DNA from: Balanoglossus misakiensis
Lineage: Eukaryota > Animalia > Hemichordata
Length of the DNA: 64,000 nt
Direction of reading: 5' to 3'
NCBI GenBank assembly: GCA_040954595.2
Contig: CM082589.2
Span: forward strand, 2,724,075-2,788,074
In this document: piece after piece, positions 7,301 to 63,083 of the stretch
Position numbering within the stretch: position 1 is the stretch's first letter
Layout of the letters: each line of letters opens with the position of its first letter
Program-made: the position numbers and the translations under genes
Notes under the pieces: model-generated
What the model was told of the DNA's origin: nothing
Databases searched by the model: none
What the model saw: only the letters and a program-made list of their open reading frames with translations

Positions 7301-7981
7301 CTAGCTTTATACAAGTACATAAGTCTTTACCATGGTTTCATTTTCCCGAACCTTGTCTCTGTCTTCTGCACCAGGATGCCTACAGTAGGATCGGTGACTG
7401 CATCCCAGGCTTTACCACTGAAGACGATTATACTGGCGTATAAGGGGCGGATCTGTCAAATGGAAGACATACGAAGTTCAATTTGGTTGTCGAAATTGTC
7501 ATCTGATGTTTCTCTATACATTTGGACACAGGTGGTATCAGTTTGGCCAATAGAAAGCATTGATTCAACCAAGACAACAACAACAACAACAACAACAATT
7601 GCTACTAACCATTGCCACCTCAAGTAAGAACAAAGAGATATAGAAGGCTATCAAATTAGATGTCATGGGATAAGGTATGCCACCGATTCCATAACACACT
7701 TTGCTGCGTGTCTTCAAACGTCTTGTGTCTCCCAGCACTTCTGTCCCTGTGGTTGGTCCAAGCAAATGCTGTTTCTGTTAGCGGGTAGAATTCAAGCCCA
7801 TGAAAATCTCTAATACACGAAAATATATTGAAATATTGTTCGAAGTTCTGCTTTGGTTACGGTAGGACAAAATTCACGCATCAGGGTCAAGGCTTCTGAC
7901 TATTGTTCTGGATATATAGCTTACCTCCCCTGGGGCCGTCGGCTCGGGCGAGTATTCTGCGGTAACTGTGTCCTCACCCAT
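4372..7981 (-). CDS. MFSD2-like (MelB/GPH family) lysolipid transporter, copy A
   Basis: Spliced exons read MGEDTVTAEYSPEPTAPGE|KQHLL..KVCYGIGGIPY..AWDAVTDPTVG..FGKMKPW..YFLLWYVP..RDSATAYR..SMVPDVIDDF..FYSFYVFFTK..YPITE. These match MFSD2A/B family motifs. Confidence 0.88.
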
Positions 7982-19100: not shown

Positions 19101-21086
19101 ATAGGTCGCGCGATTTTTTACAAAATCTAGGGAAAGTTGGCAGAATTTCCAATATGGCGTTTACTGTAATTTGAATCATGGGAAAAAAAGCGCCAGGACC
19201 AACTTCCGCCCACCTTAGTGTGGGTGATACCATTTTCCGATTGGTGTCACTGCGTCACAAGCTAAGCGTATTTGCATATTTTCCATGGGTTATAGCTCAT
19301 GAAAACTGTCAATAGATGACAAATTTTCGACTTTGCTGATGATTGTTTATCAACTGATGCAAAGAACAAACAATAGCTATGAAAATACGCCTAGTCTGTC
19401 GCCCAGTGACACCTATCGGAGAATGGTATCACCCACACCATGGTGGGCGGAAGTTGGTCCTGGCGCTTTTTTTCCCATGATTCAAATTACAGTAAACGCC
19501 ATATTGCCAACTTTCCCTAGATTTTGTAAAAAATCGCGCGACCTATACATGGCGAATATGTTTTTTTCTGAAAGAGTGACATCAAAGCTACCAAATTATG
19601 TAGAAATCAGCTACGACGGATTTCCCCTTTAACGTCGGTTTCAGAAACATATACTCATTGCACGTCACACTGCTCGAAGTCATACTTACGGTAAGCGGTT
19701 GCCGAGTCCCTGTCTTTCTGTTCCGGACTCAATAACATCGTCAAGGCAACGTACGGCAGATGATAACACTGGCGAGAAAACAAGCAGAACGTCATCGATA
19801 GATAACAGAACATTTGCACCGAAGAAAACTAACTAACGTCGTTTACATATCGACGACTGAAATGACAATCTGTGTATCTCTCACACATACGGCCAGTTGA
19901 CAAGGAAACGATGATCGCCATGGTTCTTACTGTAAGGGCCGTTTGAAAGGTGCAGTACATCACAAGATAATAGATCAGTTTGCCACGTTCGCTCATGTCT
20001 GGAACATACCACAGGAAGAAATATAACACCACAGCGAATGGCGTTGCACAGGCTAACCTGTGAAGAAACAGAAAAAAACATGCATCCCTGAAGCTGGTTT
20101 GACTTACAAGAACAGTGCTCATTACGTGTACACACAACTGTATGTCCGCTATCTTTCTTGGACACTGTGGATAAATCTGACAGAATGGAACTTAGTGCCT
20201 TATAACACGGATCGTGTAGCTCGTCCTTACCATGGTTTGAGTTTTCCAAATCGCGGATTGTCGAATCGATCAATACTCATTCCTACAACAGGATTCATGA
20301 CGGCTTCCCACGCCTTGCCAAGAAATATGATAATACTGGCGTAGATTGGTCGTATCTAGAAAAGAAATCAGAAATTGATAGAGCATTGTACAGTATACTT
20401 TATATTGAAAGTTTTTTCCTCACCAAATAACATATAGTCGACTGTAACGTAGCCTTTAAATTTGCTATAGCCATCCGCCCGTCTGTCTATCAGTCTGCCT
20501 CTCTGTCTATAGATATAGCTGCATGTCTGTCTGTCTCTGTCTGTCTGTCTTTATTTATTTATTTATTTATTTATACTTTTCATATAAGATGGCAAAATAT
20601 GTTTTACTAATTCTTTAATAATTACCATAGCAACCTCTAAGAGGAAAAGGGTCATGTATATTCCAATGGCGTTCACGGTCAATGTGAACGGTATTCCTCC
20701 GATCCCGTAGCATACTTTAGACCTTGTCTTCAACTCACACTTGTCAGTAAACACAGGAATCGACGAATTCCTCAAAAGAGGTACTTTCTTTAGGGGGAAA
20801 ATAAACACACACATTTTATGAGTACGTCTTTATCAATTACATATACGGCGAACTTGTCAACGACTCTCACAAAATTCTCATTATTTATTTAATCCGGCAA
20901 TATTTTCATTTCGCTCATGTAGTTATAGCATTGCAACGCCCTCGTCCAAAGGTCCTTTTGTTGCTAGGCAACGCGTCAATGGGGGTTCGCAATGCGGCCA
21001 CAACCATAGCCAGGTGGCCAAATGAGTCTGATTGAAAGGCAGTAAAACTACGATTGCAATACCTCGTCAGCCAAGTCGTTTTCCAT
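16118..21086 (-). CDS. MFSD2-like transporter, copy C (divergent)
   Basis: MENDLADE|KVPLL..KVCYGIGGIPF..AWEAVMNPVVG..FFLWYVP..RDSATAYRMLCEMFG..SFYVFANKLSVG..YPITE. Exon phases are consistent with copies A and B. Confidence 0.87.
19015..19632. mobile_element. Non-autonomous foldback MITE with TTAA target-site duplication (Kolobok-like)
   Basis: TTAA at 19015-18 followed by AGGGGAAATCC, and GGATTTCCCCT followed by TTAA at 19629-32. Inverted arms are ~250-260 bp around a ~100 bp spacer. It lies in an intron of MFSD2 copy C. Confidence 0.85.
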
Positions 21087-23075: not shown

Positions 23076-25314
23076 ATGAAATACTGCGGCGTAAAATCTC
23101 ACTACTGTCTAAGCTTTGCAGGGGTGGCAATAACACTTTGTTTTCTTCTTTGGATGACACAGGTGAGTCGTTGATGGTTATTTGATTTGGATTAGTGATT
23201 CCATATTCTCCGTGGCTTCTTCCATTGTCAGTGGCTTGTTGGAATAATCTGTATTTGGCGTCCATGAAACGCCTAAGAACTCATAAAATTCCTGAAATGC
23301 ATGTCGGGCTTACAAAGTAAAGGACATATGATTTTAGTAGCTGCATAAGACCCTTGGACAGAGTTGTAAACGTGTGACATTATTTATTTCACTCTGATAG
23401 GCTATTTTATATTATTTTGCTCATTGAAGCATGGCCAACTACATTTCATCAAGGCTCTATTCAAAACCCATACCCGGACATAACACATGCATAATCCCAT
23501 ATCATTTAGTGTTTAGTCATTACCACATATTTTATTACTGACGTATTCTCGTCTCCCATATACAGGGTTTGGTTGTAACTGATTATTCAGTGAGAACTGA
23601 CTATAATAACAAAGAACTGTATTCCCAATGATATATACTGCAATCAACCGTGTGCTTTTTCTATGTAAATGCCGGACATAATATTTTGATTAGACCGATG
23701 AACACAGCCGCACACAGATTACAGAGCACATGTAGCATATACATGTAATGCGAATCGCGAACATCATCACCGCTTATTATGTATCGTGCATGCCTTTATA
23801 TGTCCAGACGTCGAAAGCTGATTTCAACGCAGCTAAATAATCGATACACCACTGCTTATACAGAACCGTATAAATTGTCGGATATTTATTTTCTATTTTC
23901 AAGCGCACAGTAGGATTAATTACTTTTTTTTTGGTCGAAATCTGCCACGTTGTGCCTATGTTTGAAGCAGCGGCTGGTGTATGATTTTATCGCCTATGTG
24001 CCTACTAACCAGCTCATTAAGAAGCCATACGATTAAATGCGTATATAACAAAACGCCATTCCAATAGCGCATGAGGAGATTTTGTGACGCTCCACTGTCC
24101 ACATGCATGCGCTCGCTATTGCATTTTCATCAATTTTATTTCAATCATTCTTTAACATTTCTTGCATAGCGCATTTTCCAGTTGTAGCATCTTATGCACA
24201 CAGGTGTTTTATGACCTCCATTTCAACCATGCCAAGACTTCGCTCATGTCCGCCATTGTCGCAGCGACAAAGGTGCTCACTTCCAAAAAACCGACGGTGT
24301 CGATGAACTGCTGGTCTGCTGTAGAAGAAATGGCGCGGGAATTAGGCATTAAGCCACCCGATGACGCCATGATCCCTGTAAACAACGCAACTGGCGAACG
24401 CCGCCTGCCATTTACTGCCAGCAGTGGTACTCTTGGTCTAACGTCACCGCTGACCTCGAGGTATGATCATCAGTTTTTAAACGTCCCTTCGAGAACAATC
24501 GAGAAGAAAAATATCACACAGTTGTTTGTTTATTTAAAAGACACTTTCTAAAAAGAATTATAGAGGTAAATAATATGATTTGGTCGGCTGAAACTTCTTG
24601 CAGATTTGGTTTGCGTGAGGATGCCGTTGGAAATACTACCGCGACTTCTGTTTATGAAGGGTCTACTATCCACGTGGTTATTGAAACATTCGATTCCAGA
24701 GGACGGAATCGTGACGTTGGCGGCGACTTTTTCTTTGCCAAGATGTCAAATCAACAGCTGAAAAAGTCGACTGCAGGAATGGTGACTGATCACGCGAATG
24801 GTACCTATAGTGTGTACTTTTACTGCGGCTGGTCAGGCTCGGCAGAAATCACAATTACTTTGGTTCATCCACGCGAGGCGGTGCTCTGGATACGTAATGT
24901 ATACAGGAACATCGAACGCCGAGTCGATTGGACAGGTGTCTTCAAAAATGCAAGTTTTACTGAAGAAAGCACTTGTTACGTGTTGGGCGACTCGGTCTGG
25001 AGTGATAAGTGCGAATATGGAAACGAGAATGCGTTGGGAAAGACTCTCTATGTTTGCGACAAGCCTCGAAGTTTGGGGTGTGAGCAACTTTCAACTGTTA
25101 CTACACAGATAAAGACATTCGCCACATATGTCCAGACATATCTACCTGCCGATAAACGATATCTTTTCAAAGGGTGAGTGGACACTTCAAACGGAATAAA
25201 TTCATTGATTCCAATTAGTCGTCGTCGTCCTCCTCCTTCCCCTCCTCCTCCTCCTCCTCCTTCTCATCCTCCTCCTCCTCCTCCTCCTCCTCCTCCTCCT
25301 CCTCCTCCTCCTCC

Positions 25315-25375
<61 letters not shown>

Positions 25376-26569
25376 AAAAGACACTTTAACCATGGTGGTG
25401 TATATTGAGAAAACCTTAAATTAACCACATATTAAAATAGCAAGTTTACATATCTGGCTAAGTTATATCTAAAATATTATGCTAGCTAACAAAAAATACA
25501 GCTTGTGTGATTTTTTATCGAAATCCAACCTATTATTATTTAAATTATTTTTGTTTTAATTATTATCCTCAGTGATAACCTGGTAAAACCACTTGCTGAT
25601 AGCCCGTTACAGATTGTTATAGAAGGTAATCCAGAGATTTATATCTTTTAAATTAATGGTCATGAACATTTGTCACACATGTACAGATGAGTGATTTTGT
25701 TACCGGATTTCATTAGTGGAAAGAATTTGACAGTATAGTCGGTACATTGGAATGTCAGACAAATGTCATTGTTTTCTTGAACAGATAACGCTGATTTGAG
25801 CGGTGAGGAAACCGATGAACTGCCCATGTGCGGACCCGATCTTCCTCTTTCAAATACTGATGGCTTCTGGGAGAACGACAACAAATGGGTGTCACGTGTT
25901 TGCCGAGCGCGTCATTGGTCAGCAGATGAAGCACTGGAGTGCCTCAGGGAGAAGACGATTTACATGTTGGGAGATTCCTCATTGAGACAATGGCACGAGT
26001 CGATGACGAAAATCTTGGGTGAACCTCCGGATTTAGACAAACTTCGACGCAGAACGACAGTCCAGTCGCACAATATTACCGTTCTGTTCTATTTTCACGC
26101 AATCATACTAGGGAGTCCAGCAGTTGATTTCTGGTCACAGAATTTTGAAAGTGACGTCATTGACAGCATAACGGGAAATCAGTGCAATTCCGTGGTAGTT
26201 GTGAATCCCACATTTCACTTCGCGTCGTGGACAACTTCGTCCTACGTGGAAAGGCTGCTGCATTTGCGGCAAGCCATTCTCCGTCTCCAAAGGCGATGCC
26301 CAGAAATCACCGTCGTCTTGAAGGGCACACACCCAAGAGATCATCAAACGGCCGAATCTTACATCCACAGCAGCGACTCTATACTGTACGAGATGAACGG
26401 ACTGCTCCGAAAAATATTTGGAGGAATGCAAATTAATTTCATCGACGTCTACCATATGTCACTTTCGCATTCCGCTGCTAATAATGTCCACATGCCTATG
26501 GATACCGTGATTCGACAGCAAGTTGATTTATTTTTGTCATATGTTTGTTCGGGGATGACAAAACCTTGA
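23076..26569 (+). CDS. NXPE family member (neurexophilin/PC-esterase, SGNH-like O-acetyltransferase), copy 1
   Basis: Exons 23076-23162 (TM anchor MKYCGVKSHYCLSFAGVAITLCFLLWMTQ), 24204-24460, 24604-25173 (Ig-like GGDFF..DHANGTY), 25573-25625 and 25785-26569 (YMLGDSSLRQW..NNVHMP..FLSYVC). Confidence 0.9.
25223..25375. repeat. Compound (CCT)n(CAT)n microsatellite in an intron
   Basis: Directly visible triplet repeats. They produce the spurious poly-P/H and poly-M/R ORFs in the ORF track. Confidence 0.95.
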
Positions 26570-27468: not shown

Positions 27469-30400
27469 ATGAATGCGTCGCGTTTAGTGTTTTGTGGTAT
27501 TGTCCTGGTATCTGTGACAGTCATCACTTTATTGTTCTACTACCCAAAGCTGGTAAGTTGTTTTTAAATCTACTTTATTCTGGCCCCATTTCTTTCAAAT
27601 CACAACTTGCACAAAATCAAATATACTAAAACATTGATCGATTAACCTTTAAAGTATGTGAACTGTGACATTTTGAAAGGAGTGGAAATCGCACAGTCAA
27701 TTCAACCTGCAATCTGATTCAAACCAGATGTACGGCGACGTCTCAAAACAACAGAGAACTGTTGCTGCATGAAATATATGATGTGCTATCCTATATGCTG
27801 ATTGAAGAGTCATGGCTGTTACTATATGATGCCGTTTACAATATGTGACGAAATTCTTTTTATTTTCACGCATAACGGGAAAGCTCCATTAAAAGTAGTT
27901 ATCAAGGGATTAATCATATGCAAATATTTGAAGGGAGTACAGTAGTTAGCAGTCTCTTACGTTCGCCTACTTGCAATAGATCTGGAATAGATATCAATGC
28001 GCACCTCTACTCCACACGTCAAATAGTGCTTACCTGTCGTACAAATTGCCGAAATGTTTTTAGAGAAATAAAATGAAGATATATTCTAATATAGTTAATT
28101 TAATTTTGAATGGCCCGGAACATTTTTGGATAGAAAATAGTGCCGCGCATGCAACAAAGAGATGTGTAAAGTGTCAGCCACCATGCACAAGGAAATGTGA
28201 AATAACAAAATAATAACAAAACTAAACGGATTTCAGGTAATCTTGCATATTAAGTGACCCGAACTTGACAATAGCCAAGTCGGGTACCAAGTGAAGTAGT
28301 TTTAATGGAGGCTTCCCGTAATTTTTCCAACGAAATATTTTGTTTATCCCATGATGGATGTCATTGAGAAGAATTCGTTTGTCCGCTGTACATATGTTGT
28401 ACACGTTGTCGCGGTCGACAGCATATGTCATTTAATGTACTGATGATGCAGTGGGTTATTGTGTGGGAAAACCATCAGACTAGTAATCATAATCGTTAGT
28501 TCCAGCCCCGGCATGGCTTTGGTGTTGTGTCCTTTGGCAAGGCACTTTACTTCTCATTGCTTCTCCCCACCCAGGAGTGATGGGTACCTGGTAGGACAGA
28601 GATTGTAATGTGTGTGTTTAGCTCTGCTGCGCCTATGGCTGTACATGTGAGCTGTTGTTTACTCGCTAGGGAGTTGCATGGAATATTTAGGTCTAATGAC
28701 CTTGAAAAAACTGCAAAGCGCATTGAGATGTATTGTGTAATGTGCTACATAAGAAACCAATATTAATATTATTATAAATTGAGAATTCTAGTATATTCTA
28801 TCATGCATGTTAGGGTTCACCTGATGGTGTTTGGTATGCTGTATCTGACACGTTTCCTAAGAACCACGCCCCTCTTCGCCGGAGAACACTTTGCTTCACT
28901 TCAAGTGATGGTTTATATGCACGTGCGCTTACTTCATCAAATCTCAAATCAATATTTCAGCGTTCCGATGGTACACAGTATCTCAACGGCAACCAGTGGG
29001 CCAAATTCAAGTCTGGGTCGGCAAGTCCTCGTGAATGGTCTGCACCACTCGAAGAGAGAAGTGAAGCAACTGAGGAATACAAAACAGATCATGTCTGGAA
29101 CGTGTCGCGGGGATTTCTCAGCAGCTGTGGACGAACAAGCGCCAGCAAATCAACGTTTGTAGTGTTGAACAGCGGAACAATACAAACAGGTGACGTTGTC
29201 CGGATTCTTGTAACAGCACTCGATGAATACAACAGAACGCGATCGCATGGCGGCGATATGCTTAGGGCCACGCTGTTGAACAAGAAAGCTAAATTTGCCA
29301 CGCAAGGAAGAATTGAAGACCACCAGAACGGGTCATACACCGTATATTTCTACGCAGGGTATGCCGGTAGCGTCAATGTCGACATCACTCTAGTTCTCCA
29401 GCGCGAGGCGATCGATTGGCAACGGAACATCTTCAGGACAATTGAACCGCGCGCTTGGTGGACAGGCAAATTTGCTCTTGGTAAAAAAACTGAAGCGTCT
29501 CCATGTTTTGTGATGAGAGAGGGGACGTGGAAGAACAAATGCGAATTCCCCCACCAGAATGCTCTGGGGAAAACGAGATTTCTCTGCGAGCCTCCAAAAT
29601 CTCTCCCGTGCAGCAGTCTGTCGTCCATATCCGTGTTGAAGAAACCGAAGTTGCCATCGCGGTTAACCAAAGAAATGGCAGAAAATGGTTATTTGTTCAA
29701 AGCGTGAGTACATATACTTAACTACGAATAAGATTGGGCCAGGTTATTTCGGTATAACTTGTATTTTTAGCTTCTGGACAGCAATGGACGGGTTAGCTGT
29801 TGCGTAATAGTGTGCCCATCACAGAACACAGCCATATCCATGTGTCTCCTGTGATAAATCCCTAAAAATATGTCGAATACAGCCCATTGCAAAATGGCCG
29901 TAATTTTCACATCTGTTGCTTTTACAGGCCGAATGCCCTACAGCCCATCAAGGGAGGTGTGTCAACGTTGGTGATCGAAGGTAACTTTTACCCTAAGGGA
30001 TTGGTCTCTTTCTTCTGCCGGGGGCGGTCGATTCTATTTTGTTGACGTCAAAAAGTGACTGATGTGTTAATTAAGTGTGATTGCCTACCTTTAACGATAT
30101 GACTATAAGTTATTTCATTTTTTTTCATATCATTAATAACAGATTCTAAGAATCGCCTGAATCAGTCGGAAGTTCCACCGTGTCAGACAGATCTTCCAGT
30201 CCCGGTGTCTGATGGGTATTGGCTCGGTGACAGGTGGCACTCGCTGATGTGCAAGAGCAGAGAGTGGTACGACCCGAAAGAAGTTCAACAATGTCTTAAA
30301 GGGAGAGATATCTACTTTCTCGGTGACTCGACAACTCGCCAATGGTTTCAGAAATTTCTGGAGATTTTGGGCTACCCCCTGGTAGTTACAGGCTCCAACT

Positions 30401-30954
30401 GGAGAAAACGCGTTGCGTCTATTCCTCGTGAGTACACCGTCACTGGAGAGGACGATTACGCTTGGGAAATATCGGACTTGAGAAATGATATCAATGTTAC
30501 ATATCGCCACCACGCGTTGACCCGCCACTCGGAAGTGCCCATCTCTCGCTTTCCGTATCTCGTCGACGTTGTCGATGCATTGGCGGCCCCGGATTGCAAC
30601 TACGTCATTCTGATAAGTCTGTGGGCTCATTTCAATTCGTGGACACAGGACAGCTTCGATGAGCGACTGTTTAACATTCAGAGAGCCCTGGAGAGACTGG
30701 GGAACCGTTGCCCTAACACGCCTGTAGTTATTAAAGGTCCCCATGAGCGGAACTCCCTGTCCCAGTACTGGCTCCTGTTCGACATGATACGAACTCTAAG
30801 AAAGGCGTTTGTTGGGCACAATGTCTTTTTCATCGACATATGGGACATGAATTTCGCCTATGCCTTCGCAAATGGTGTGAGGATTGATGTGCACATGCCT
30901 ATGAATCTCATAAGGCAAGAAATCTTCATGTTTCTGTCGTTTGTCTGTGGCTAA
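27469..30954 (+). CDS. NXPE family member, copy 2
   Basis: Exons 27469-27552 (TM), 28961-29703, 29928-29980 and 30143-30954. Motifs: GGDML..DHQNGSY, YFLGDSTTRQW, FIDIWDM, DVHMP..FLSFVCG. Confidence 0.9.
28445..28775 (+). mobile_element. Degenerate tRNA-derived SINE with CORE-like domain and L2-like tail
   Basis: Decayed A/B-box-like head (tgatgcagtggg..gttccagcccc), CORE-like gtgttgtgtcctttggcaaggcactttacttctcattgcttctccccacccagg..atgggtac, and tail gcaaagcgcattgag..tattaatattattat. Confidence 0.65.
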
Positions 30955-32723: not shown

Positions 32724-35700
32724 ATGGAACATCAGGTGGGTACTAAATTTATTTTTAAGTTTAACGCACAAGGTGATTTCGATATCATTCCCTAATTTAT
32801 AACAACTGTTAAGAATTCATTTATTAAGGTTCGTGATAAAGTATTTGCCCAAAGTAACACTTCGATTAGGACCACTTCTGTCTGAAGAAGACTGATTCCA
32901 TTAATTCACACATTCATTAGATTGTGAGAGAAGTCAGCTTTTAAGATGATCGGGTAAATAAAGTCACTTGTCTCTTGAGGTACACGACTTTTCAGAAGCA
33001 GACATTCCAAATTCGCGCAACCTGAAAGCTCCTTCGCCATCTCTTAACCCCTTTAACGCAGTCAACGTGTTACTTTCGCAAAATCATAAATTTTACCATG
33101 TTTATTTAAAAGATTTTATCAAGACCTGCGGACAATTTAAAATTATGTCCTCTTGGTCCAGTATTAGTGGGAGGAATCGGGAAAAGTGTGTGAACATGAT
33201 AAACAAAAATGTTGCACAACTTTAGATGGTGCAACATTTGTGACATGGAAAGGGTTAACATAACGACAGATAAATCTCCGAAGGTTCGCCTGAATGCGTT
33301 TTGTATGAAAACAATCTTTCATAACGTTCAAAATATGGACGAATATCCATGACTGTGTATATCTATTGATTAAACATATATAGGCACTGGAACCAGCTAT
33401 ACCTAACACGGCAACGCAAGCAGAGGTTGTTTCATCCATTCTTCCTGGTTTGCTGAGTTGCCCGAAGTATGTGCCCCACTGGTACGTGTACGACAAGGTG
33501 GGGTCGGAGCTTTTCGACCGCAACACCGAAGAAAACCCCCACTACCACTTATGCCGTGTGGAGGACATGCTTCTCAAGAATCACGCAGGTTAGTCAATTT
33601 ATTTATTTATTTATTAATGTATTTATTTTATTTTATTTATTCTTCATTCCAATGATAAAGATCTACATAACTGCGATACCCATTTACTATACTTGCATAA
33701 GAGACACACTTATTTAAAAAAAGGGTTCAATTTTCCTTGGACACACGGAATCTCCATTCACCATATTCACACCATATTAAAATTTATATTTCCGCAGAGA
33801 GCATCATCTCCAGCTTCGATGCAACTTCAGCGTTTGTTGAGCTGGGAGCAGGCAACTCGAGCAAAACACAAACTTTGATCAACGCGATGCTGACCAAGGA
33901 GAACTCGCTGCGGTTTGTCCCCATTGACATTTCCAAAGGTATTTGTGAATATTCGCACAATCCGGTATATCACTTTGAACATTAAGCCCACAGTGCACCA
34001 ATGCAACCACTTACACTACTATATTCTTAGCAGACCTTATCGGAAATACAAGCTTGCCGCAAGGCTGTTCAGTATACAATTTTACTTTCTGTTTTGGAAA
34101 CATTGTTTTCTTTGGACGTATCATGCAGTAAACAACGGTCAGATACTCCAAGCGACGATATGACATTTGACCGATAAAACCGATATAGTGCAAAACCGAT
34201 ATAGTGCAATGCAGTAAAGGCATTTTGTTGATCTATTTTCATATGTAAAATATAATAGACGTTGACATATATTTTCATAATGCTAATGAAGGCAATTGAA
34301 CGTTGGAAATGTTGAGTACAATTGGAAACTGTATGCTCCCCTCACTTTGCACAGTTCAGCCGGCGCGCAGTGGGGCTCTAACTTTTGTCTCACGCGAGAC
34401 TTAAATTTCAAAAGGTTACAAAAACAGAAGCTAACCACCCTCTCATTGGCATCCGTCCATGACTCATCGATCAATGTCAACGATGACGTCCTCATTATGG
34501 GAGGGTGCACGCTTAAAGCACCACAAAGGAAATTTCGTAGTTTCTCCATTTATCTGCATGGCAGGGCTACTTTATAGGGGCAATATAAGTCTATTTTCGT
34601 TGATAAAATTACACAGGGACATCATCAGGTCAATAGAAAATTTGTTCACTTCAGCGTAGCACCCATAAACTTGATGTACAGTGGACACCAAGATGAGGGT
34701 AACCACACTGTGGTGTAATATTACTGGGTTTTTAACGTTTCAGATTTCCTCGAGAATAGCGCACGGGTATTGAAGGAGAAGTTCCCAGCGATGGACATAC
34801 AGCCATTTGTCGGTGACTACGTCGAGGGCATCAAGCACGCCCAGTCGTTCCAGGGACCCAAGCTTTTCATCTTCCTTGGCAGTAGTTTCAGCAACATTCC
34901 AATGGCGCAGATGTTGCCTTTCCTTGAGACCGTCAGGAATTCTATGACAGGTGATACACCACTTGATTCCTGTGTCAGTTTGGGCTTACACAGCATCGTA
35001 AATTTTATTCTCCGGATTATGTATATTTGCATATTGTGGTGTCTGGGTACTACAGTCGTATACAGCTATTGTATTTGTAACAATGAATACTTCTCATCAA
35101 TTTGCATTTTGCTAATCTATGCAGGTGGGCAGGACCGATTTCTCATTGGTCTCGACATAACAAGGGATCCGTCAACGGTGGAGAAGATGTACGCTCATTC
35201 TTTATTCGCCGATTTCAACAGAAATGTCCTCACGCGACTAAATCGGGATTTCAAAGCCAACTTTGATCAGAAGAAATTCGATCATTACGCCAATTACCAT
35301 ACAAGTAGCGGAGAGCACGCCAACGGGACCTTGATGGAAAATGCGGAATACATCGAACTGGGATTTAGAAGTAAACGTCAACAAACAGTTACGTTTGGTG
35401 AGTAGTGTGTCTCAAACATTTTAATCACACTTCAATCAGTATCAGCTTCTGTGCATGTCAGTCGTGGCGTTTTGATTTTCAGAACAGTGACGAGGCAGTG
35501 ATGGCCACCCGGAAACGGCCGTTCACATGTCAAGTTGCGTTTGTTATGCAAAGCAAGGTCATGTTGGGTCAGGTCATCAGTGGTTTGACACAGTTCAGAG
35601 GTCGCGCTCTTTGGCGATAGCGAGCGATTTTCGTAGATTTTGAGGTTAACCTGACAACTAAACTGACAACAAAATATTTTGTTCTTCTGACAATAATTTG

Positions 35701-36557
35701 GAGGGATAATAAAACGTTGCCTCAATATGTTAAATATTTAACACCGTGTTTCGCCGATCGTAATGTTCGGTTCTGGAGTTCCGGGCATGCAATGTTTACA
35801 AGCAGAAAGTAGTTCCCTGGTGCTCATTCGCATATGTACTCGTGACAAGTTTACAGCATACCATACTAACACTGGCTGGATAAAACTGTTGCTGCACGTG
35901 AAGTATGAATGTACTTGTTATTAGTAGTGATCTTAATGGGCAAAGGAAATTGAAAATACAGTGACGTTTTCATTATAACGTGCTTTCAACAGGGACTATT
36001 TTATCTCATTTGCATATCACCTGTTCGATAGCAGTTTGATTTGGCTGGCGACAAGGACGCAATCGGCAGGAAATATGGTTAATGCGTATACCTTCTCTGT
36101 CAGCACACAGATTCAACGTCTTTTTTCTGAGATTTATACCTGTGTCTATCGCGTTTGGTGGTCTAGCAGAAAGTGCAACACTATATCCTCCGAATGCAAC
36201 CTCGTGAACTAGACATTTCAGACTTCACGGTCAAAGGGCGTCAGGGATACACGGTGTTTGCGAAAACATTTAGTCACTTATAACCACGGAGTGTACTATT
36301 ACTTATATTGTTCTGTCGTAGAACTTAAAGTTAAAAATAACGTCGGCGTTCTTTTGTTTTCCAATGCAGAGGCCATTGGTACAGAAATCGAATTTCAACA
36401 AGAGGAAATCTTCTACACGCATGTGCCCGGGAATATGAGCATGAAATGGAATTGGGGCCAATTTGAAAAGCTTGCCTCGATGGCCGGCTTGAAAACAGAA
36501 AAGAAATGGACAGATGACAACAATAGATTTGCACTGGGGTTGCTAAAATTAGACTGA
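32724..36557 (+). CDS. EgtD/EasF-like SAM-dependent amino-acid N-methyltransferase (Methyltransf_33), ~341 aa
   Basis: Exons 32724-32735 (MEHQ, tentative), 33384-33588, 33798-33938, 34744-34950, 35125-35397 and 36370-36557 join in frame. Motifs: GLLSCPKYVPHWYVYDKVGSELFD, VELGAGNSSKT, FVPIDIS, FLGSSFSN, FLIGLD, FNRNVLTRLNRDFKANFD, WTDDNNRFAL. Confidence 0.88.
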
Positions 36558-39891: not shown

Positions 39892-42490
39892 ATGAACACC
39901 ATGCGTAAAGCGTTTTGTGGGCTCTTCCTCGCCGGAGTGGCGACGTTCATCTCGCTGTATTCTCTCCAAAATCTTGTAAGTTGGTATTTGGACATCTGCA
40001 TATGTGTTAATTGCACTCATTTGCACAAAGCACACGTCTTTTCATTATCAGTGAATGCCGGAGTAGACTTCAGTGGAGCGAGTGAAATATATCAAATGTG
40101 CTGCTCACCTGTTAGGACATCTCATTGTCACCAATATATTCATTGTGTTTTCCATCGTGAATTACCATTAATGTACGTTTATACAGATGTCCCAGCACCC
40201 GTGTTTACACACTGTACATAATCATGAATTAAAATATCCTGAACTGTAAAATTGCGCAAAATTTGGTAACTTATGATTAACATACGTTTCACTGAAAACA
40301 TATGTTGGCCGTACGTTTGCATTGGACGATATTATTTATGCTTTAGTTTACTTGCCATGCGTGTGAACCAAGCGATTTTATTTCTATTCATTTGTTGCAA
40401 ATTTGGAACAGACTGTAAATCATGTTGTTTGATGTGCTATGCATTTCGATAGTTGATGTTTTATTATGCATTCTATAATCAAGAACGCAACTGAAAAAGT
40501 GGGACTTTGTTTACTATTTTATATGACACCATTTCATTTTAACGCCTAGTATTCAAGTACGATTCAGCGGGTGGTTGAAAATCGGTGCAAGTCCACAGAG
40601 AAACTGGAAAGAGTAGACGGAATATCACATGTTTTTTTTCAACCACGTGGGGACAGAAAAAATATTACTTTAGAATCCAAAACGGACTATCTCTGGAATA
40701 TGTCGTCAGCGTTTCTCAGCAGCAGAGGAATGACAGACGCGAATAAATCAACGTTTGTGTTGTTGAATGAAGGAGAAATAGAAAAAGGTGACGTCGTTCA
40801 GATTCGTATAACAGCTGTTGATGAATACAACAGAGCAAGGTCGCTTGGGGGCGATCTTCTGCTCGCCACGCTATACAACAAGAAGGAAAGATTTGCCACG
40901 CAGGGAAGAATTGAGGACCACCAGAACGGATCGTACACGGCTCGTTTCTACGCGGGGTATGACGGCACCGTAAGTGTTGACGTCACGCTTGTTCTCCAGA
41001 GGGAAGCTGTCACGTGGCAGGAAAGCGTGTTTAGGAAAAGCGAACCGCGTGCCTGGTGGACTGGGAAATTTGTTCAGGGCGATAAAACAGAAACCTCGCA
41101 ATGCTTCGTGAAGAGAGAGGGGACGTGGAAGAACAAGTGCGAGTTCCCTCACCAGAACGCTCTGGGAAAGACGAGATTTCTCTGCGATCCGCCAGAGTCT
41201 CTTCCGTGCAGCAGTCTGTCATTTATATCTTTCATGCTTCATGAGTTGCCAACAGGATTGCAGAAGGAAATCGGAGAGCACCGATACCTTTTCCAACCGT
41301 GAGTGACATACATGTATATATCTCGGATCTCTCCTTAGATTCTCGCATCAGTGTATGTTTGTGTGAATCGTGCACCAGGGGTTTGTCATTTTCTTGTGAT
41401 TATTGCAAGTTTTTATATCGCAAGTTTTATTCATTATTCTATTCATTGTGTTTTTACATGTGTTTTATTCAAGTGGCTGAAGTTTTGCTAGACTGTAAGA
41501 GAATATCACTTAAGCTTTCGCGCATGCTTCGTTTACAGGCCACATGCCATGCAGCCAATCAAAGGAAGCGTATCAACGCGGGCGGTCAAAGGTAACCCGA
41601 AGCATTCATTTATAAGAGCAATAATATGAACGGTTCAGTCATTGTACCTGTAAAATTTAATCACCTGTCTCTTCTTTAAAGATTCAGAAACCAGGTTTGA
41701 AGTCCCACCGTGTCAGACAGATCTTCCGGTCCCGATGTCTGATGGGTATTGGCTCGGTGACAGGTGGCACTCGCTGATGTGCAAGAGCAGAGAGTGGTAC
41801 GACCCGAAAGAAGTTCAACAATGTCTGAAAGGGAGAGATATCTACTTTCTCGGTGACTCGACAACTCGCCAATGGTTTCAAAAGTTTCTGCAGATATTAG
41901 GCTACCCGCTAGAAGTTACGGATTCCGATTCTAATTGGAGAAAAAGGGTTGCGCCAATTCCAAACAACTACACGGTTACTGGTGAGGACGACTACTGTTG
42001 GCAAATTAAGGACCTGCGGAACAATATCAATTTTACGTATCGACATCACGCGTTGACGCGCCACGGAGAAGTGCCCGTCAGTCGCTTTCCGTACGTAGTG
42101 GATATCGTCGACGCTCTGTCGGCCCCGAAGTGCAATTACGTCATTGTTACAAGTCTATGGGCTCACTTCAACGCGTGGACGCTGGAAAGTTTCTCTGAGA
42201 GACTGATAAACATTCAGAAAGCGTTGGAGAGACTCAGATTCCGTTGCCCGCAAACGCTTGTAGCAATCAAGGGCCCCCATGAACGCAACGACCTCTTCCA
42301 GTACTGGATTCTGTATGACATGATACGAATTCTTAGGCAGTCATTTGTTGGCTATAATGTATTTTTCATCGACATATGGGACATGAATTTCGCTTATGCC
42401 ATCGCAAATAATCGGCAGATGGATATACACATGCCGATGGACCTCATTGGTCAGGAAGTCTTCCTTTTCCTGTCGTTCATATGCGGCTAA
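39892..42490 (+). CDS. NXPE family member, copy 3 (close paralog of copy 2)
   Basis: Exons 39892-39975 (TM), 40550-41298, 41539-41591 and 41682-42490. Motifs: GDSTTRQW, MDIHMP, FLSFICG. Confidence 0.9.
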
Positions 42491-45446: not shown

Positions 45447-48141
45447 GAATAAAATTTTAGGGGTGCCAGTCACAGGATTGTGTTAATCCTAGTAGCTTTA
45501 ATCGTTTCACTACCATGGTTCGGTCCAAGTCCATTGTTTTCTATGTGATAGTTGGACCTCCATGTCCATTTACGCCTGGTATCATGAAAACATTTCTAAT
45601 TTTATCTCATAGTGCTTGGATTTTAACATTCACTGTGGCTGTACAGACTTACAAACCTCACAATAGCCAGTTATTAGACCTAGCGGCCAGTACTTACCGT
45701 TCATGTAAAAACTCTTCTTTTCACTGTTTTTAATAGATTTTGCTCATGTCTTCTTATGAGATGTGTATTTGCTTTATAAAGTCAGCATTATGGAAAACTG
45801 TTTTATTAACCTTAAAAGGTATGCACAACATTTAATGTCTGGGTTACAAACTGTGTCACCTGGATGTTAGTGAGGGTAATGTACACAAAAGGGTGTAATG
45901 TACGTATTTCAAATCCGGGATGGTTGTCGTTTTACTGTTTGTTTCAGCTCTGGTGAACACTGGGTCGACGTTGGTCACAGGAATTTTAATGCGTGTATTG
46001 GGATTCTAGGATGTATAAATGCTTGTCTCTGCCAGTGCATGCACGGTTGCTTGTTCACATAAGTGCGTTACAGATCAGGTATTTTTCTGAAAATAACAGG
46101 TTTGTCAAACTGTGCAGTGCATTCAAAAGAGCGGTTCATATACAAAGCGTCCGGGCAGACAATAGCTGGAGGTCACTTTGGAAGAATCGGCCTTCCCAGT
46201 ATGAAAGGGCTGGGTCACTGGCCGCCGGCCAGTCAGTTCCACTTATTTACAATTATACAGGGTCACACAGTGCGTAGTTGCCTTTTCAATTATCTTTATG
46301 TCAATCAAACACTTAGCATTGCACTGGAGTAGTCTGGCGTCAAGTAAGTGTCCAGGGGGGGGGGGTGTGAGTGTCCTTCTGGGAGCAGTTGCATGATCAA
46401 GAATTCTGTGAACTCAAAACAGTGTTCGTTACTAATATCCTAGGGTATTTCCACATTTCAGTTCTATGAACTTCCAATGAATTCTACTCTGTGTTTTTAT
46501 GGACGACATCCGTCCAGCCTGTCAACTGAAGCAAGGCTCTCATCCCTGCAGTACATCTGAATGGAATAGTCCAATCTTTCTTTGTGTGAAGATAGATGGG
46601 GTCAAACCAAACTGTATTATAAACAGGTGGTTGATATGACAACGCATGCGGTACATTCACGAAACTTAATTTTTTTTGTATGATAGGCAAAAATTCAGTT
46701 TGGCTGGTACATACTGCCTACTACATGTACATACCTGTAACTTTTGAATGAAACAAAGTATAATGCTTTAAATGTACATCTCATTTCAGAAAATCCGCAA
46801 TCAGACAGACCAAACACTTTATCCATGGCAACAATTCTGGCAAGTTTGAAGCCAAATGGATATATTATTCTTTATATTATTCTTTGATGGATATTCAACA
46901 TTATGTTATTGATCAGAAGCTGGTCTTTTATTTTGACTTCTTTATTCGGAGTTGTAAATTTAGAGTGTGAGAAACATTTTGACTTTACAGCATTTTATTT
47001 TTAAGACATTGCCACCAATTAATCAATGATCAAAATTAACAGGGTACATAGACAATATACTATCTCATCATCAATTCTTTTTCTCACACTCTCTGTACGG
47101 ATACAGATTGTTTTTATTAATCAGAATCTTATTTTGACTTCATTTTTTGGAGTTGTTATTTTTAGGATGCAGTCTGTAATTGAACAAATATACATAGCTA
47201 CAATCAGTAATAGGACTAAACATGTAGGGGCAAGTTTGGGAATATTTGTTTTTCTCATTTTATCCCTAAATCATGTTACAGACCCATCTTTTCAACCTGT
47301 CAACATTCAGTTCCTTGATGTGTATATACACTCACCTTGTTACTTCAGGGTGGAGGTACGGTGCCCTCAAACGACTGTACCTTACCACAGTATAGTTACT
47401 GCTAAGAGCATTTTAATCCAGATGAAATCATCTCAGAAAATGCCAGCCACGCATGATTGATAATCAAATATGGCATGTTTCAACAATGCATTACAGAGTA
47501 CAACCAGTAGCTGTTTACTCGGAGCAGAATTTTTTTTCAAAATCTTGGAAGCTTATTTCAATTTACAGAGCATTGCAAAATAACTTGTAGCTTGAGATTA
47601 AATTAACCAAATTAATATTGAAATTGAGTGTTCGACACTTATGAGGCTTATATCTGTATGTTTTGTTTATTCAAAATTTATGAATCTGTATACAGCTTAA
47701 TGGTACATGTGATATGTATTGTTCTGGACAACTATATTTTCTTAGTTGTATTTATTAAAGACGCACACACCAGTACTTTTAACATGAACCAGTACATGTG
47801 ATTTTGCTATCTTATTTGTCTAGTCCATAGTGGTACTAATGTTGTTTTATTAACATCTATATTTTTCTATAGCAATCGCAATAAAATAACATTATGAAAT
47901 AAACTCTCGCAAAGTTTTTGTTGTAGGTTGTGCAGTAAACATACATGCAAATTTATTCATCTGTCTACAAAGAATACAAAACACACTTTGTTTGTTTGTT
48001 TGCCCCCCTGCAGCTGACCCTGTGAATATTTTTTTAAAAAAATCGAACAAGTATGACAAAAGAATAAAACATTTCTTTCCAGTCTATAGAGTAAGACCAC
48101 CAGGAACTCAACTAGAAACTTTAAAAAAAAAATACATTTCA

Positions 48142-51100
48142 TCAATTATAATACGGGTTGTAAGTGACCCAATGAGGCTGGTCCTTTTTCTTCTCTTTTT
48201 CCTTGTCAAAGAAAAGTGATTTATAAGCAGCACTCTTCTTCACATCATACGCAGCTCTCTTGTCGCCGTTTGGCGCTGACGGGCCACCGTTGGCGAGCTT
48301 GGATTTGCCGTTCACCATTTTCGTGTCTCCGTTGGAAGTGCTGGCTTCTCCGTCTTTTCTGGCAAGTTTGCTGGGCTTCGGACCGCTTGATGTGCTCGGT
48401 AGATCTGCGTCAGCCAAGAAACAAAACAAAACAAAGTGTTGAAGTTATGATGCAATCAGTCTACAATAAGGCTAAATGTTTATCCACGTTGACCCCCCCC
48501 CCCCCCCTGGTGACCTATGACATCATTCGGATGATTTATTCCGGGGCTAGTTTCAAAAGGCTTAATCTTATATGCAGCATGATTGTATTGGTCCAATGTC
48601 CATTGTTGACAGTCCAAACTCTGACCGAAATACCAGCCTGTACCCGACCACAATGCATTTGAGGGTCAGAGTAACACAGCAGTAGCTTTGATGTAAGGGG
48701 GATTCCCCCTGGGTGATTTCCGTGAACATCACCACTACCTGGACAACAAACAAAGAAGCTGGCACATCGCAGAAAAACGCTCATTCTCACGTGAAGGGAG
48801 GAAGATCAGACATCAATCTGATTTCCTTAATCCAGCAGAAAATCACAAAAGCTGTAAGTATACATATCTCTCTGTATGCATTAGCACTTTTTCAGTAAAA
48901 ATCGCCAATACTGTAGAGGGTAAAGTCGAGCTTGCATACATCTACTTAAGTACACATAGTAGCAGGGAAAATACGCACGTCACTGAAGATTTTTTTCCAC
49001 TCAATCTGTCACAACTGTGCTGTCCTGGTTTGTTAATCTACAAATTAACTACTGGTGAATTTTACAGCTTCATACAGAAGCATGAATGAGTTATTTTATG
49101 AAAAGTAAACCATTTTTGTTGGGGTGACCTAATTCCCAAATTAATCGTTATTGCTGGTCTCAGATGGCAGGTAACACTCACACACACACCAACAACAAAT
49201 GTTGGCTGACATAATTTCTTGATGAACTTTCTACCGTTTCACTCTGTGAAGTAAAATTATCTTTTCTATCATTTCACTTCACTTTTTAAGTAAGTGTGTT
49301 TGTTTTTCAATCCACCAGTTTCATTTTACAGTCTGTATATATACAATCCAAGCTGTAGTCCTGTGACCTACTTATGGCTGCCTTCGGAAACCTGCCGAAC
49401 AATGGGATTGATCCGTTCATTTCTCACTTACACAGTTTAGCTGATGAGATCGGGAGAGGTAAGGTACACATTCTGAATTAAAATTTCATGGAAATGCTAC
49501 CATCCTGTGAAATGCTTGTACAAACACAATTTTTGTTGTCACTCTTTACAGAGGATCACCTGCGCATGATCAATTGCTGCGGAGGCCTCAAACCACCCAT
49601 CCCAGTGCGAGAGCGAGAAAAGTTGAAGATCGGGGAGAATGGATACTCGTCTCCCTTCCAGTTATTTGAAAAGTTAACACACACTGGCCATTTATCCAAG
49701 AGCAAACCAGATATTCTTATCGGGCTTCTGAAGATGATTAACAGGCACGATCTGGCCGACAGAACAAGAGTCCGGTTTGAGATAGGTTTTGACAGACATT
49801 GCTCCGATGGGGAGATCGAGGCAAGATTGAACGCAATGGAGTAGAAGTTCTTCCTTAGATCTGTTTCTGAGGCAGTTTCATTAACTAAGCTGTGTATTAT
49901 TTTGAGCAGAATAACATGATTGTAATGTTATAATCCAGTGGACTTCAAAGGACTTTTAGCACTCATCTAGACAGCAAAAACACCTTTTTTAAGGCAGAGA
50001 GAACTTGCCCTGAAGTGAAAGGACTCTCATCGACTACATACCTTGTGATGCTGACGATGTACTGGGTTGCTCTGAACTCTTTGATGTACTCGCTTGGTCG
50101 GCTGAGAGTTTGTGTTTGGCAGCTTTCTTGGCTTTCTGTAAAGATATTTTAGACAGTTTTCAAGGGTAAACATTTAAGAGAGTCATGAAACTTGGACATA
50201 CCAACACCCGACCCATGACATTCAATTTCATAAACTAGCATAATGGACCCTATCTTAATACAGATTTTAAGAACAGTTTATACAAAGGAGAAAAAAGAAA
50301 TCAGTTTCCATTTGGTTACCTTCTCTGCTTTGGCTTTCGCTCTTCTTTCTTCCATCTTCTGTCTCAAGACGTCAACATCTTCATCTGTGCCGTTCAGGAT
50401 CACTTCCTCCCCCTGTGTATATGCTTTTCCACACTGGAATGAAAAGAAAACATATTCTATTGTCTACAAGTTACAGGACTTTAACACAGGGTTCCAAATA
50501 TCCCATTCTCGATGAAATTAAATCTTAGCAGGAACTGTGCTTTGGTTATCATTACAGTACCTTGTGACAGACGTCTGACTTGACTTCCTTCAAGGCTCTC
50601 TCTGAAAACACACAGCCACACTTTGTCAGGTAGCAAAATCTGAAAGCAAAGATAGATGACAGTTACAGTTATTTTCTTCATAGTTCATTTCTGTTTCACT
50701 TGTGAAGATAGCGCTTCCATTTTCCTGCTTAATGGAACCTGACACTCAGACAGACAGCGTTGACTGACCATACCTGTGTCGGCCATTCATCTCCAGACCA
50801 CTGACTGGACATATGTAGCGTGACTTCTGTCTGTCAATGTATGTATCACCTTTGTCAGCACCGTTCTCATTCGCATAGGCTGGGTTCTCTGTCAACTGAA
50901 GCTCGGTGACATCCTGTGATAATGGGGAGACGAATCATATACATCAATTTAATAACGGTCTATAATTGAGATCGAGACTGTTTTTCATGCATCAAATTTA
51001 CCATAATGGAGACAATTGTTTTCACTTACTTTCAAGTTTCTGATGTGTTGTGCATTTTCACTGGTGGATTTGTCTAGCAGATATTCCAAAACCGATTCCT

Positions 51101-51875
51101 TATTGTAGAGTCTAGAATGGAAAGAGAACAGTATTTTGGTACGCTTTGCCGGAAAGATTTTGGCTTGAGTGTATAAGCCTTAAATCTAATTCCAATGTAC
51201 TGGTACTACTATGTTACATGTTCTTTTATAATACATACAGTAACAGTATATTCACCTTCCTAATTCACAAGCAACAATAGGTTGTTCCAAAGCCTCTTGG
51301 GTGATTGCACATAGACACCATTTGGCTACCAAATCCATGTCCTTATCTTTCTGTGGAGAAAAGTACATGAAATGAACATGTTTGTTAAGTTTTATTATAA
51401 TAATACCACATTTCTCAAATATGAGTGGTCTTGGTCATGTTAATTAAGGGCTGGTTTTATTTTACCAATGAGCTGAATAATCAGAATATGAGTTACCGTC
51501 TAGGGCAGAGATGAATGTATGAACAAATGGAGTGAGCGAATGATTACTTGTTTCCATGACGCAGCACTTCCGCATTTCGCAAACGTGTTTAGCAATACCG
51601 ATCTCAAGAAATCATGATCACAGAAGCGATCGCTTGAAACAGGAATCACTCTGCATCAATATTTACATTTCTCCGTAATGAAGATTAATAAATATTCAGG
51701 CAAATCAACATTTTGACCCAACGAACGATAAAAATAGTTCATTGGTTAATTCACAGGGTAAGTGTTAGGTACACGATTGCATCTAGTTATTGGTCGTTTA
51801 GGCTACCTGTTCCGGCTTTTTCTTCAGTCTGACCAGTTCATCTCTCTTGGGAATCGTTCCTCCGTCACATCCCAT
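48142..51875 (-). CDS. RTF2: Replication termination factor 2
   Basis: MGCDGGTIPKRDELVRLKKK..KWCLCAITQEAL..VACELGRLYNKES..YICPVSGLEMNG..CGCVFSERALKEV..AYKSLF..HWVTYNPYYN, spread over 8 coding exons. Confidence 0.93.
49374..49844 (+). CDS. Small death-effector-domain (DED)-only protein, 125 aa, nested antisense in the last RTF2 intron
   Basis: Exon 49374-49458 (donor AG/gtaagg) plus exon 49552-49844 (acceptor tttacag) give MAAFGNLPNNGIDPFISHLHSLADEIGREDHLRMINCC..SPFQLFEKLTHTGHLSKSKPDILIGLLKMINRHDLADR. This resembles the FADD DED (DPFLVLLHS..RHDLL). Confidence 0.75.
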
Positions 51876-52200
51876 GGTTGCTCAGGTTAGATCTGTCCCA
51901 CGGAACAGCACAATCGTCAAAACTCTGTCAGTATCCCAAACCCACAACAAACCAACAGCGCAGCTGGTATGACGATCACTAGTATCAGTGGCATCGTGAA
52001 ATCTCGTTGCCTCTCGCGATATCGCCAGAGTTATCTAAAACAAGGGATTCCTTCATGCGGACACAGAGGGCGCAAAAAAGGGTGATGACCTTTTGGATGA
52101 CCTTTCATTTCCGGTATATAAGTTGTTTTATTTCCACGTTTCGCTCATCACTCCCCACAAGCTCAACGAGGAATCGCATCTAGTCAGCATTAGGTGAGTA
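51876..52200. promoter_or_regulatory. Putative bidirectional promoter RTF2/GALE
   Basis: The two genes are head-to-head. The region is CpG-richer and contains TCTCGCGAT (~52012), TGACCT-n6-TGACCT (52086-52103), ETS-like TTCCGG, a TATA-like tatataag (~52116) and a donor taggtgagt (~52194) for a non-coding GALE exon. Confidence 0.55.
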
Positions 52201-52842
52201 TGTAATACAGATGTTTAACAATTACCCGAAGGACGGAAAATACTTGAGTGTGTATTATCATAAGTTTGAATCTGAGGGGTGTGACTGACCATCTTCGTCG
52301 ACTGTACAGAACACACGGACGTCGTCGCCACGACAGTCGAGTCGACACCGGCAAAAACATGTATGATAGCTGACAGCTGATGCAGCATGCCGTTACACTG
52401 GATGAGCTTTTACGGTGCACAGGTGTCGAGGATTAACGGACGATATTTTACATGGTGATCAGAGTGTTATTGGCAACAGATGACGAACCAACACTCCGGG
52501 TACCGGTAACCAGCCACACCCCTTCGCGTACGTGCAAGACGTTGCCATTCTGGTGACGTAGGGGTGTTTGGTTCCGATGTGCCACGTCAAACCTGTTGGT
52601 TTTCACTGACGTATACTGTGATCATACCATACGCCAGGCATTGTTTTCTGGAATATCTATGTATGTACAGGATGTTTGTTTGAAGAAGATAATTTCTCAG
52701 TATAATTTTGTGTGTGTATGTATCATGTTCATTTCTTTCTCTCACTGAGTGTTCAGTATTTTTTTCTTATTTATCTATCAACAACGATAGTAATGACATT
52801 ATTTTCTTGTCTCGTTTCTAAAATATTTCACAGGTGAAAAAA

Positions 52843-55118
<2,276 letters not shown>

Positions 55119-62945: not shown

Positions 62946-63083
62946 TATTTCTCGTGTCTACCCCCCCCCCCCTCCGTTTATAAATTGTGTTCTGGCCCTT
63001 GCCACATGTATGCACAGTTGCTATTTCTCGTGGCTACCCCCTCCACCTATAAATTGTGTACTGGCCCTTGCCACATGTATGCA
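62946..63083. repeat. Imperfect tandem duplication, ~60-75 bp unit, two copies
   Basis: tatttctcgtg..ccccctcc..tataaattgtgt.ctggcccttgccacatgtatgca occurs at 62946 and again at 63022. Confidence 0.85.

What the first reader, a model, noticed from the sequence alone, without database searches (positions are those of the whole stretch)
49374..49844. Hidden FADD-like DED-only gene nested antisense inside RTF2
Seen: a two-exon, phase-matched 125-aa ORF lies in RTF2 intron 48405-50041, the longest RTF2 intron. Candidate upstream non-coding exons are also present (donors near 48854 and 49171, acceptor at 49331). The protein aligns to the FADD DED: DPFISHLHSL vs DPFLVLLHSV, an acidic residue at position 19, and RHDL, so the E/D-RxDL charge triad is intact. 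The FL motif (F25/L26) is replaced by N-C, and there is no death domain or caspase domain. Known: FL mediates DED-chain assembly, and DED-only proteins (PEA15, vFLIPs, cFLIP-S) modulate caspase-8 activation. Inference: this is a decoy or chain-capping regulator of extrinsic apoptosis or immunity that annotation could easily miss.
Basis: partly seen in the sequence, partly recalled or inferred. Interest (0 to 1): 0.75.

Follow-up and report, generated by a model that had tools for sequence, protein, structure and literature searches.

The report
Acorn-worm lone death-effector-domain gene
A small intact gene inside an intron of a housekeeping gene, in what is likely an acorn worm, encodes a lone cell-death interaction domain from a family so far found only in acorn worms, and it likely regulates longer immune-type proteins that carry the same domain rather than being a disabled copy of FADD.

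Summary
A 125-codon two-exon ORF (49374-49458, 49552-49844, + strand) lies antisense in the 1637-nt last intron of RTF2. It encodes a death effector domain (DED): Pfam E 8.7e-6, below the curated cut-off; its predicted fold matches FADD DED best. No death-domain, caspase or Roc exon was found nearby. It is not a one-off. A search of 1.84 billion proteins gave 10 relatives, nine named, all from acorn worms. Seven are DED-only, two are DED-Roc-COR GTPases, one is DED plus spectrin repeats. All share an RxxxGF tail after the DED. F25 is missing in 9 of 9 relatives, including the fused ones, so its loss marks the family, not a decoy. Two changes are specific to this copy (L26 to C, K33 to V), which keeps a capping role open. 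Best reading: a stand-alone DED that likely binds same-subfamily DEDs, such as DED-Roc-COR proteins, and likely damps their assembly, as CARD-only proteins do for caspase-1. Expression, binding and conservation of the nesting are untested. New variant of a known kind; moderate interest.

The parts
49374..49458 (+). Coding exon 1 of the DED-only gene: N-terminal extension and helix 1, ends in phase 1
   Evidence: second best of 2132 ORFs under a relatives-only profile, E 0.0052
49459..49551 (+). 93-nt GT-AG intron with an in-frame stop, GC 0.33
   Evidence: best of 24 in-frame junctions; splicing not observed
49552..49844 (+). Coding exon 2: DED helices 2-6, RHDL, the family's RxxxGF tail, a predicted extra helix, stop
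   Evidence: Pfam DED E 8.7e-6; 10 relatives; model pLDDT 89.6; FADD DED top fold match
49356..49358 (+). In-frame TAG upstream of the ATG; fixes 49374 as the start if the acceptor is 49318 or 49331
48854..49331 (+). Candidate 5' non-coding exon signals: donors with GT at 48854 and 49171, acceptor AG ending at 49318 or 49331
   Evidence: consensus match only; unverified
48405..50041 (-). Host intron: RTF2 intron 7, 1637 nt, the longest of seven
48142..51875 (-). Host gene RTF2, 8 coding exons, 311 aa
   Evidence: Pfam Rtf2 on 3 of 5 exon pieces tested

Best explanation
This is an intact two-exon gene for a stand-alone death effector domain of a subfamily found so far only in acorn worms, and it likely works as a dominant-negative or capping partner of longer proteins carrying the same DED type, most plausibly DED-Roc-COR GTPases. 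Shown: gene anatomy, DED homology, family membership, and the existence of DED-Roc-COR relatives in two other acorn worms. Predicted: a death fold plus one extra C-terminal helix. Inferred: it is expressed; it docks on a same-type DED through its intact helix-1 and RxDL faces; it fails to extend the assembly because L26 and K33, which most relatives keep, are changed; having no enzyme or second adaptor domain, it cannot pass a signal on. Odds that it is a real coding gene of this family: about 0.87. Odds for this mechanism and partner: 0.4.
For: Ten relatives at E 5e-18 to 9e-4; nine are named, all from Ptychodera flava, Glandiceps talaboti or Saccoglossus kowalevskii. Seven are 91-170 aa with no other Pfam domain (six hit DED); two carry Roc and COR-A; one carries spectrin repeats. 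The window is from a close kin: the neighbouring glycosyltransferase is 66% identical to P. flava and 59% to G. talaboti. The spliced protein is 48% identical to P. flava DED-only P0121 and 42% to the DED of DED-Roc-COR P0122, against 25-27% for exon 2 to FADD DED in structural alignments. G107 and F108 are invariant in 10 of 10 relatives, R103 in 9 of 10. Copy-specific changes: position 26 is C here, against L in 6, W in 2, M in 1, R in 1 of 10; position 33 is V here, against K in 8 and R in 1 of 10. In human FADD, F25/L26 form one type I face and K33/R34 one type III face (PMC12403089, passages). CARD-only INCA caps the caspase-1 filament through one defective face (PMC11874512, passage). 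Coding-like composition: GC3 0.57 against flanks 0.37-0.40. Three of the DED-only loci have several RefSeq isoform records, which by my knowledge of RefSeq usually reflects transcript support.
Against: No RNA evidence for this copy. No DED-Roc-COR gene has been shown in this genome, because no assembly is held. The tree of 11 DEDs is largely unresolved (1 of 8 inner branches well supported) and cannot say whether DED-only forms came from the fused ones. The two copy-specific changes could be drift. FADD's H9 is kept here but in only 1 of 9 relatives, so interface mapping from FADD may not transfer. The closest relative P0121 has lost RxDL, so the family's faces vary freely. FADD and caspase-8 of acorn worms were not available for comparison.
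Confidence: 0.4

Rival explanations
1. One reading: a decoy or cap for the FADD/caspase-8 DED chain of extrinsic apoptosis, like cFLIP-S or vFLIP.
For: FADD DED is the best real solved match by profile (E 1e-4; caspase-8 0.15) and by fold. L8, H9, D19 and RHDL match FADD in this copy; H9 and R72 are needed for FADD filaments (PMC12403089, passages).
Against: F25 is absent family-wide (0 of 9), so it is not a decoy mark. None of the 10 relatives has a death domain or caspase. FADD is one of few single DEDs in the PDB, so best match does not mean partner. FLIPs are tandem DEDs (PMC4558505, passage).
Confidence: 0.22
2. A positive adaptor or scaffold: it seeds or bridges DED assemblies, or binds a non-death-fold partner through its conserved tail, as PEA-15 binds ERK2.
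For: The most conserved residues lie at the end of and after helix 6 (RxxxGF), and a further helix is predicted. PEA-15 uses its DED and a C-terminal peptide on ERK2 (PMC11874512, figure legend passage).
Against: The same tail is in the fused DED-Roc-COR proteins, which points to a structural part of this DED type. PEA-15 ranks below FADD in both fold searches.
Confidence: 0.2
3. An unexpressed or decaying duplicate: the first two exons of a family gene copied into the RTF2 intron, where insertions are tolerated.
For: The ORF stops just after the shared extra helix, where fused relatives continue. None of the 9 named relatives sits on a contig of the same length as the best match to the neighbouring glycosyltransferase in its species, so the position may be recent. 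Two family-conserved residues are changed. No canonical poly(A) signal on the + strand between the stop and 50517.
Against: Start, stop, both splice sites and 125 codons are intact; GC3 is coding-like. DED-only forms of 105-170 aa are annotated in three species. The copy shares a five-residue insertion and N-terminal length with DED-only P0121.
Confidence: 0.14
4. The 5' part of a longer gene (ordinary FADD or a DED-Roc-COR) that splices on before the stop.
For: A weak GT lies just before the stop codon.
Against: Of 98 + strand ORFs of 25 aa or more from 45.5 to 52.9 kb, only the DED exon and the first GALE exon hit Pfam below E 0.01; no death, caspase, Roc or COR domain. The next + strand gene, GALE, starts near 52.8 kb.
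Confidence: 0.04

Closest known systems
Uncharacterized acorn-worm DED-only proteins (P. flava XP_070539043.1 = P0121 and XP_070564779.1; S. kowalevskii LOC144350700, LOC144359205, LOC102807859; G. talaboti LOC144434510)
   Same: Single DED, 105-170 aa, no F25, hydrophobic position 24, RxxxGF tail; 31-48% identity.
   Different: This copy has C at 26 and V at 33; it keeps RxDL, which P0121 has lost; none of them is shown to be nested in RTF2.
Acorn-worm DED-Roc-COR proteins (P. flava XP_070536673.1 = P0122; G. talaboti XP_077993940.1 = P0123)
   Same: N-terminal DED of the same subfamily, 42% and 36% identical, with the same tail and extra helix region.
   Different: They add Roc (G1, G3, G4 motifs present) and COR; P0123 has three hydrophobic C-terminal segments. 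This gene has none of these.
FADD (human)
   Same: Best solved match by profile and fold; D/E19-RxDL triad, L8, H9.
   Different: No death domain; F25, L26, L28 and K33 are not kept; extra tail and helix.
PEA-15
   Same: Small single-DED protein with a C-terminal tail (PMC4558505 and PMC11874512, passages); fold match.
   Different: 12-18% identity in structural alignments, ranked below FADD; ERK binding untested.
CARD-only and PYD-only proteins (e.g. INCA)
   Same: Logic: a lone death-fold copy of a longer protein's domain that can cap a filament (PMC11874512, passage).
   Different: Other death-fold class; here the parent and the capping are inferred only.
cFLIP-S and vFLIP MC159
   Same: DED-only content.
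   Different: Tandem DEDs; this protein has one.

Membership tests
DED (PF01335) domain family | Pfam match above the gathering score | tested here: inconclusive
   Exon 2 alone scores 26.3 bits, E 8.7e-6, cut-off 35.9; the whole spliced protein was not scanned; 1 of 10 relatives passes the cut-off, 9 of 10 hit DED
DED (PF01335) domain family | Six-helix death fold closest to DEDs | tested here: met
   Exon 2 model gives helices 2-6 plus one extra; whole relative P0121 gives six helices; top Foldseek rows are FADD DED, probability 0.99-1.00, rmsd about 2 A, but E only 0.25 and 0.015
DED (PF01335) domain family | E/D-RxDL charge triad | tested here: met
   D30 with R93-H-D-L; full triad in 6 of 10 relatives
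FADD | C-terminal death domain | tested here: not met
   Stop at 49844; no death-domain ORF among 98 + strand ORFs
FADD | FL motif and hydrophobic patch (F25, L26/L28, K33) | tested here: not met
   N, C, G, V at these places
cFLIP-S / vFLIP | Tandem DEDs | tested here: not met
   Only one DED in the window under the family profile
PEA-15 | Orthology and ERK-binding tail | tested here: inconclusive
   No PEA-15 among the 10 sequence hits nor among 38 PDB profile hits; fold match at 12-18% identity only; ERK binding not testable
Acorn-worm DED subfamily (defined here) | Over 30% identity, RxxxGF tail, no F25 | tested here: met
Filament-capping single-domain inhibitors (COP/POP-like) | Binds the parent's domain and blocks elongation | not testable with these tools
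   Needs biochemistry
Nested protein-coding gene | Spliced transcript from within the host intron | not testable with these tools
   No reads could be laid; splice model rests on sequence and homology

The most novel reading that the evidence does not exclude
Acorn worms have an undescribed DED-based signalling module: Roc-COR GTPases (one membrane-anchored) that assemble through their own DED subtype, controlled by a dispersed family of DED-only genes. This would be the DED counterpart of CARD-only and PYD-only inflammasome brakes, with this intron-nested gene as a capping member.
Probability: 0.25. Interest if true: 0.7.

Novelty: new variant of a known kind. Interest (0 to 1): 0.43.

Why it matters
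If the reading holds, single-domain brakes exist for DEDs outside the vertebrate FADD/caspase-8 system and act on GTPase-type assemblies. The family also shows that a DED subtype can lack the FL motif entirely, so FL loss alone cannot be read as a decoy. Practically, 9 of 10 relatives fall under Pfam's cut-off, so domain counts of invertebrate death-fold repertoires miss this family. The nesting itself is a common arrangement and has no shown function.

Tried and rejected
Sequencing runs: none was listed for 47800-51200; no evidence either way. Whole genome: not held, so paralogues and a DED-Roc-COR gene in this genome could not be sought. Word-index search with exon 2: no candidate among proteins of 52-168 aa; with the 9-row alignment it returned only 4 proteins, all already known. 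phmmer of exon 2 alone against the PDB: 0 hits. Metagenome contigs: 327 pattern matches, none confirmed. Complex prediction of P0121 with the DED of P0122: no answer, score 0.00, not evidence for or against. VIA-align searches could not be run, machine busy. Tree: unresolved. Rfam on 45450-52900: 0 matches. Repeats of 25 nt or more in 40-64 kb: none in the host intron, so no sign of a mobile-element origin. Atlas features for exon 2: leads only, under 0.9. Earlier-findings look-ups near, by sequence, relatives and by words: nothing. Rejected: ordinary FADD (no death domain); tandem-DED FLIP (one DED); F25 loss as a decoy mark (family-wide). Designed PPR and armadillo hits are repeat-summing artefacts (no single stretch passes). 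dN/dS and intron-position conservation could not be computed: no DNA of relatives was available. No supplements were read.

Full report
Observation. Joining 49374-49458 to 49552-49844 gives 125 codons; the 93-nt intron has GAG|GTAAGG and TTTACAG| ends and an in-frame stop, so splicing is needed. An in-frame TAG 18 nt upstream fixes the start. The host on the minus strand is RTF2, 8 exons and 311 aa, and 48405-50041 is its longest intron (1637 nt against 116-456). The coding part has GC3 0.57 against 0.33 GC in its intron and 0.37-0.40 in the flanks.

It is a DED. Exon 2 hits Pfam DED at E 8.7e-6, under the curated cut-off. An AlphaFold2 model of exon 2 (pLDDT 89.6) has five DED helices and one extra C-terminal helix. 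The whole closest relative gives six helices. Foldseek ranks FADD DED first for both, with probability 0.99-1.00 and rmsd about 2 A, though no E-value reaches 0.001. The spliced protein itself was not folded.

Organism and family. The neighbouring glycosyltransferase is closest to Ptychodera flava (66%), Glandiceps talaboti (59%) and, lower in the list, Saccoglossus kowalevskii (52%), so the window is likely from an acorn worm. phmmer of exon 2 against 1.84 billion representatives gave 10 hits. Nine are RefSeq proteins of those three species, one is unnamed. Seven are short with no other domain, two are DED-Roc-COR, one is DED plus spectrin repeats and may be an annotation fusion. None has a death domain or caspase. 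A profile from these 10 alone picks exon 2 and exon 1 as the two best of 2132 window ORFs and the stated junction as best of 24. That is independent support for the gene model. The library shows one protein per 50% cluster and the query lacked helix 1, so the family may be larger and wider than 10.

What the residues say. Numbering follows the profile alignment to FADD. F25 is absent in 9 of 9 relatives with a residue there, fused ones included, and position 24 is hydrophobic in all. So FL loss is a family trait. G107 and F108 are invariant and R103 nearly so, forming a tail that FADD does not share by alignment. Two changes are particular to this copy: C at 26 (L in 6 of 10, W or M in 3) and V at 33 (K in 8 of 10). 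In FADD these lie on a type I and a type III face, while L5/L8/H9 and R71-D74 form other faces (PMC12403089, passages; PMC4558505, passages). This copy keeps L8, H9 and RHDL. One face kept and another changed is how INCA caps the caspase-1 filament (PMC11874512, passage). Against this: H9 is kept in only 1 of 9 relatives, the closest relative has lost RxDL, and drift would give the same picture.

No longer gene. Among 98 + strand ORFs from 45.5 to 52.9 kb only the DED exon and the first GALE exon hit Pfam below E 0.01, and the family profile finds no second DED in the window.

Nesting. None of the 9 named relatives lies on a contig of the same length as the best glycosyltransferase match in its species. 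This hints that the position is recent or that a nested orthologue is unannotated. It is weak: RTF2's place in those genomes was not checked and S. kowalevskii scaffolds are short.

Mechanism. Shown: anatomy, homology, family. Predicted: fold. Inferred: expression, homotypic binding to same-subfamily DEDs, inhibition. I put 0.4 on a brake for same-subfamily DED proteins such as DED-Roc-COR, 0.22 on a FADD/caspase-8 decoy, 0.2 on an adaptor or PEA-15-like scaffold, 0.14 on a dead duplicate and 0.04 on a longer gene. The tree could not order fused and lone forms. Unreviewed notes on this genome report many ankyrin-Roc-COR-death proteins and a ZU5-UPA-DED module; these are leads that widen the list of possible partners and were not checked.

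Literature. Invertebrate DEDs fused to varied immune domains are known: DED-TRADD-N expansions including hemichordates (PMC8195603, passages), DED-RLRs (PMC8662601, passages), DED-NACHT in amphioxus (PMC2575513, passages), and Roc-COR on TIR proteins in Aplysia (PMC9334734, passages). I found no description of this DED-only family or of DED-Roc-COR in searches for 'death effector domain' with 'hemichordate' (8 papers, 6 listed), with 'Roco' and 'COR' (2 papers), 'DED-only' (16), or. Most of these were seen as listings only, the single Roco passage of PMC8195603 was not displayed, supplements were not read, and the library lacks most subscription papers. The Atlas holds clusters of 81-105 aa DED proteins in eukaryotes, which may be whole proteins or fragments, so short DED proteins are not rare.

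Verdict. Real feature, very likely a gene, member of an uncharacterized acorn-worm DED subfamily. New variant of a known kind; interest 0.43.

Noticed in passing
P0122 (XP_070536673.1) and P0123 (XP_077993940.1): DED-Roc-COR proteins, 50% identical over 807 columns, with G1/G3/G4 motifs; P0123 ends in three hydrophobic segments, a predicted membrane anchor. I found no description of this architecture.
   Followed up: partly
P0124 (XP_070580635.1): Same DED subtype in front of spectrin repeats; real fusion or annotation chimera unknown.
   Followed up: no
window 49459-49463 and 49552-49553: A second donor 5 nt downstream paired with an acceptor 2 nt downstream keeps the frame and adds one residue (126 aa); it scores 119.3 against 124.6 bits.
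   Followed up: partly
window 24467-26569, 28814-30954, 40550-42490 (+): Three similar NXPE-family genes; Pfam Neurexophilin and NXPE4_C confirmed for the last, the other two judged by eye.
   Followed up: partly
window 33701-36557 (+): Animal gene with a histidine-specific methyltransferase domain (Methyltransf_33, E 4e-28 on 34719-35405); this family includes EgtD of ergothioneine synthesis (recalled).
   Followed up: no
window about 5400-20300 (-): Repeated exons that look like two or more tandem MFSD2-type transporter genes (by eye; label recalled).
   Followed up: no
window 51875-52850: RTF2 (-) and GALE (+) start head to head about 1 kb apart; a PITH-domain gene follows near 56.1 kb.
   Followed up: no
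window 62946-63083: Two copies of a unit spaced about 70 nt apart, 88-91% alike.
   Followed up: no
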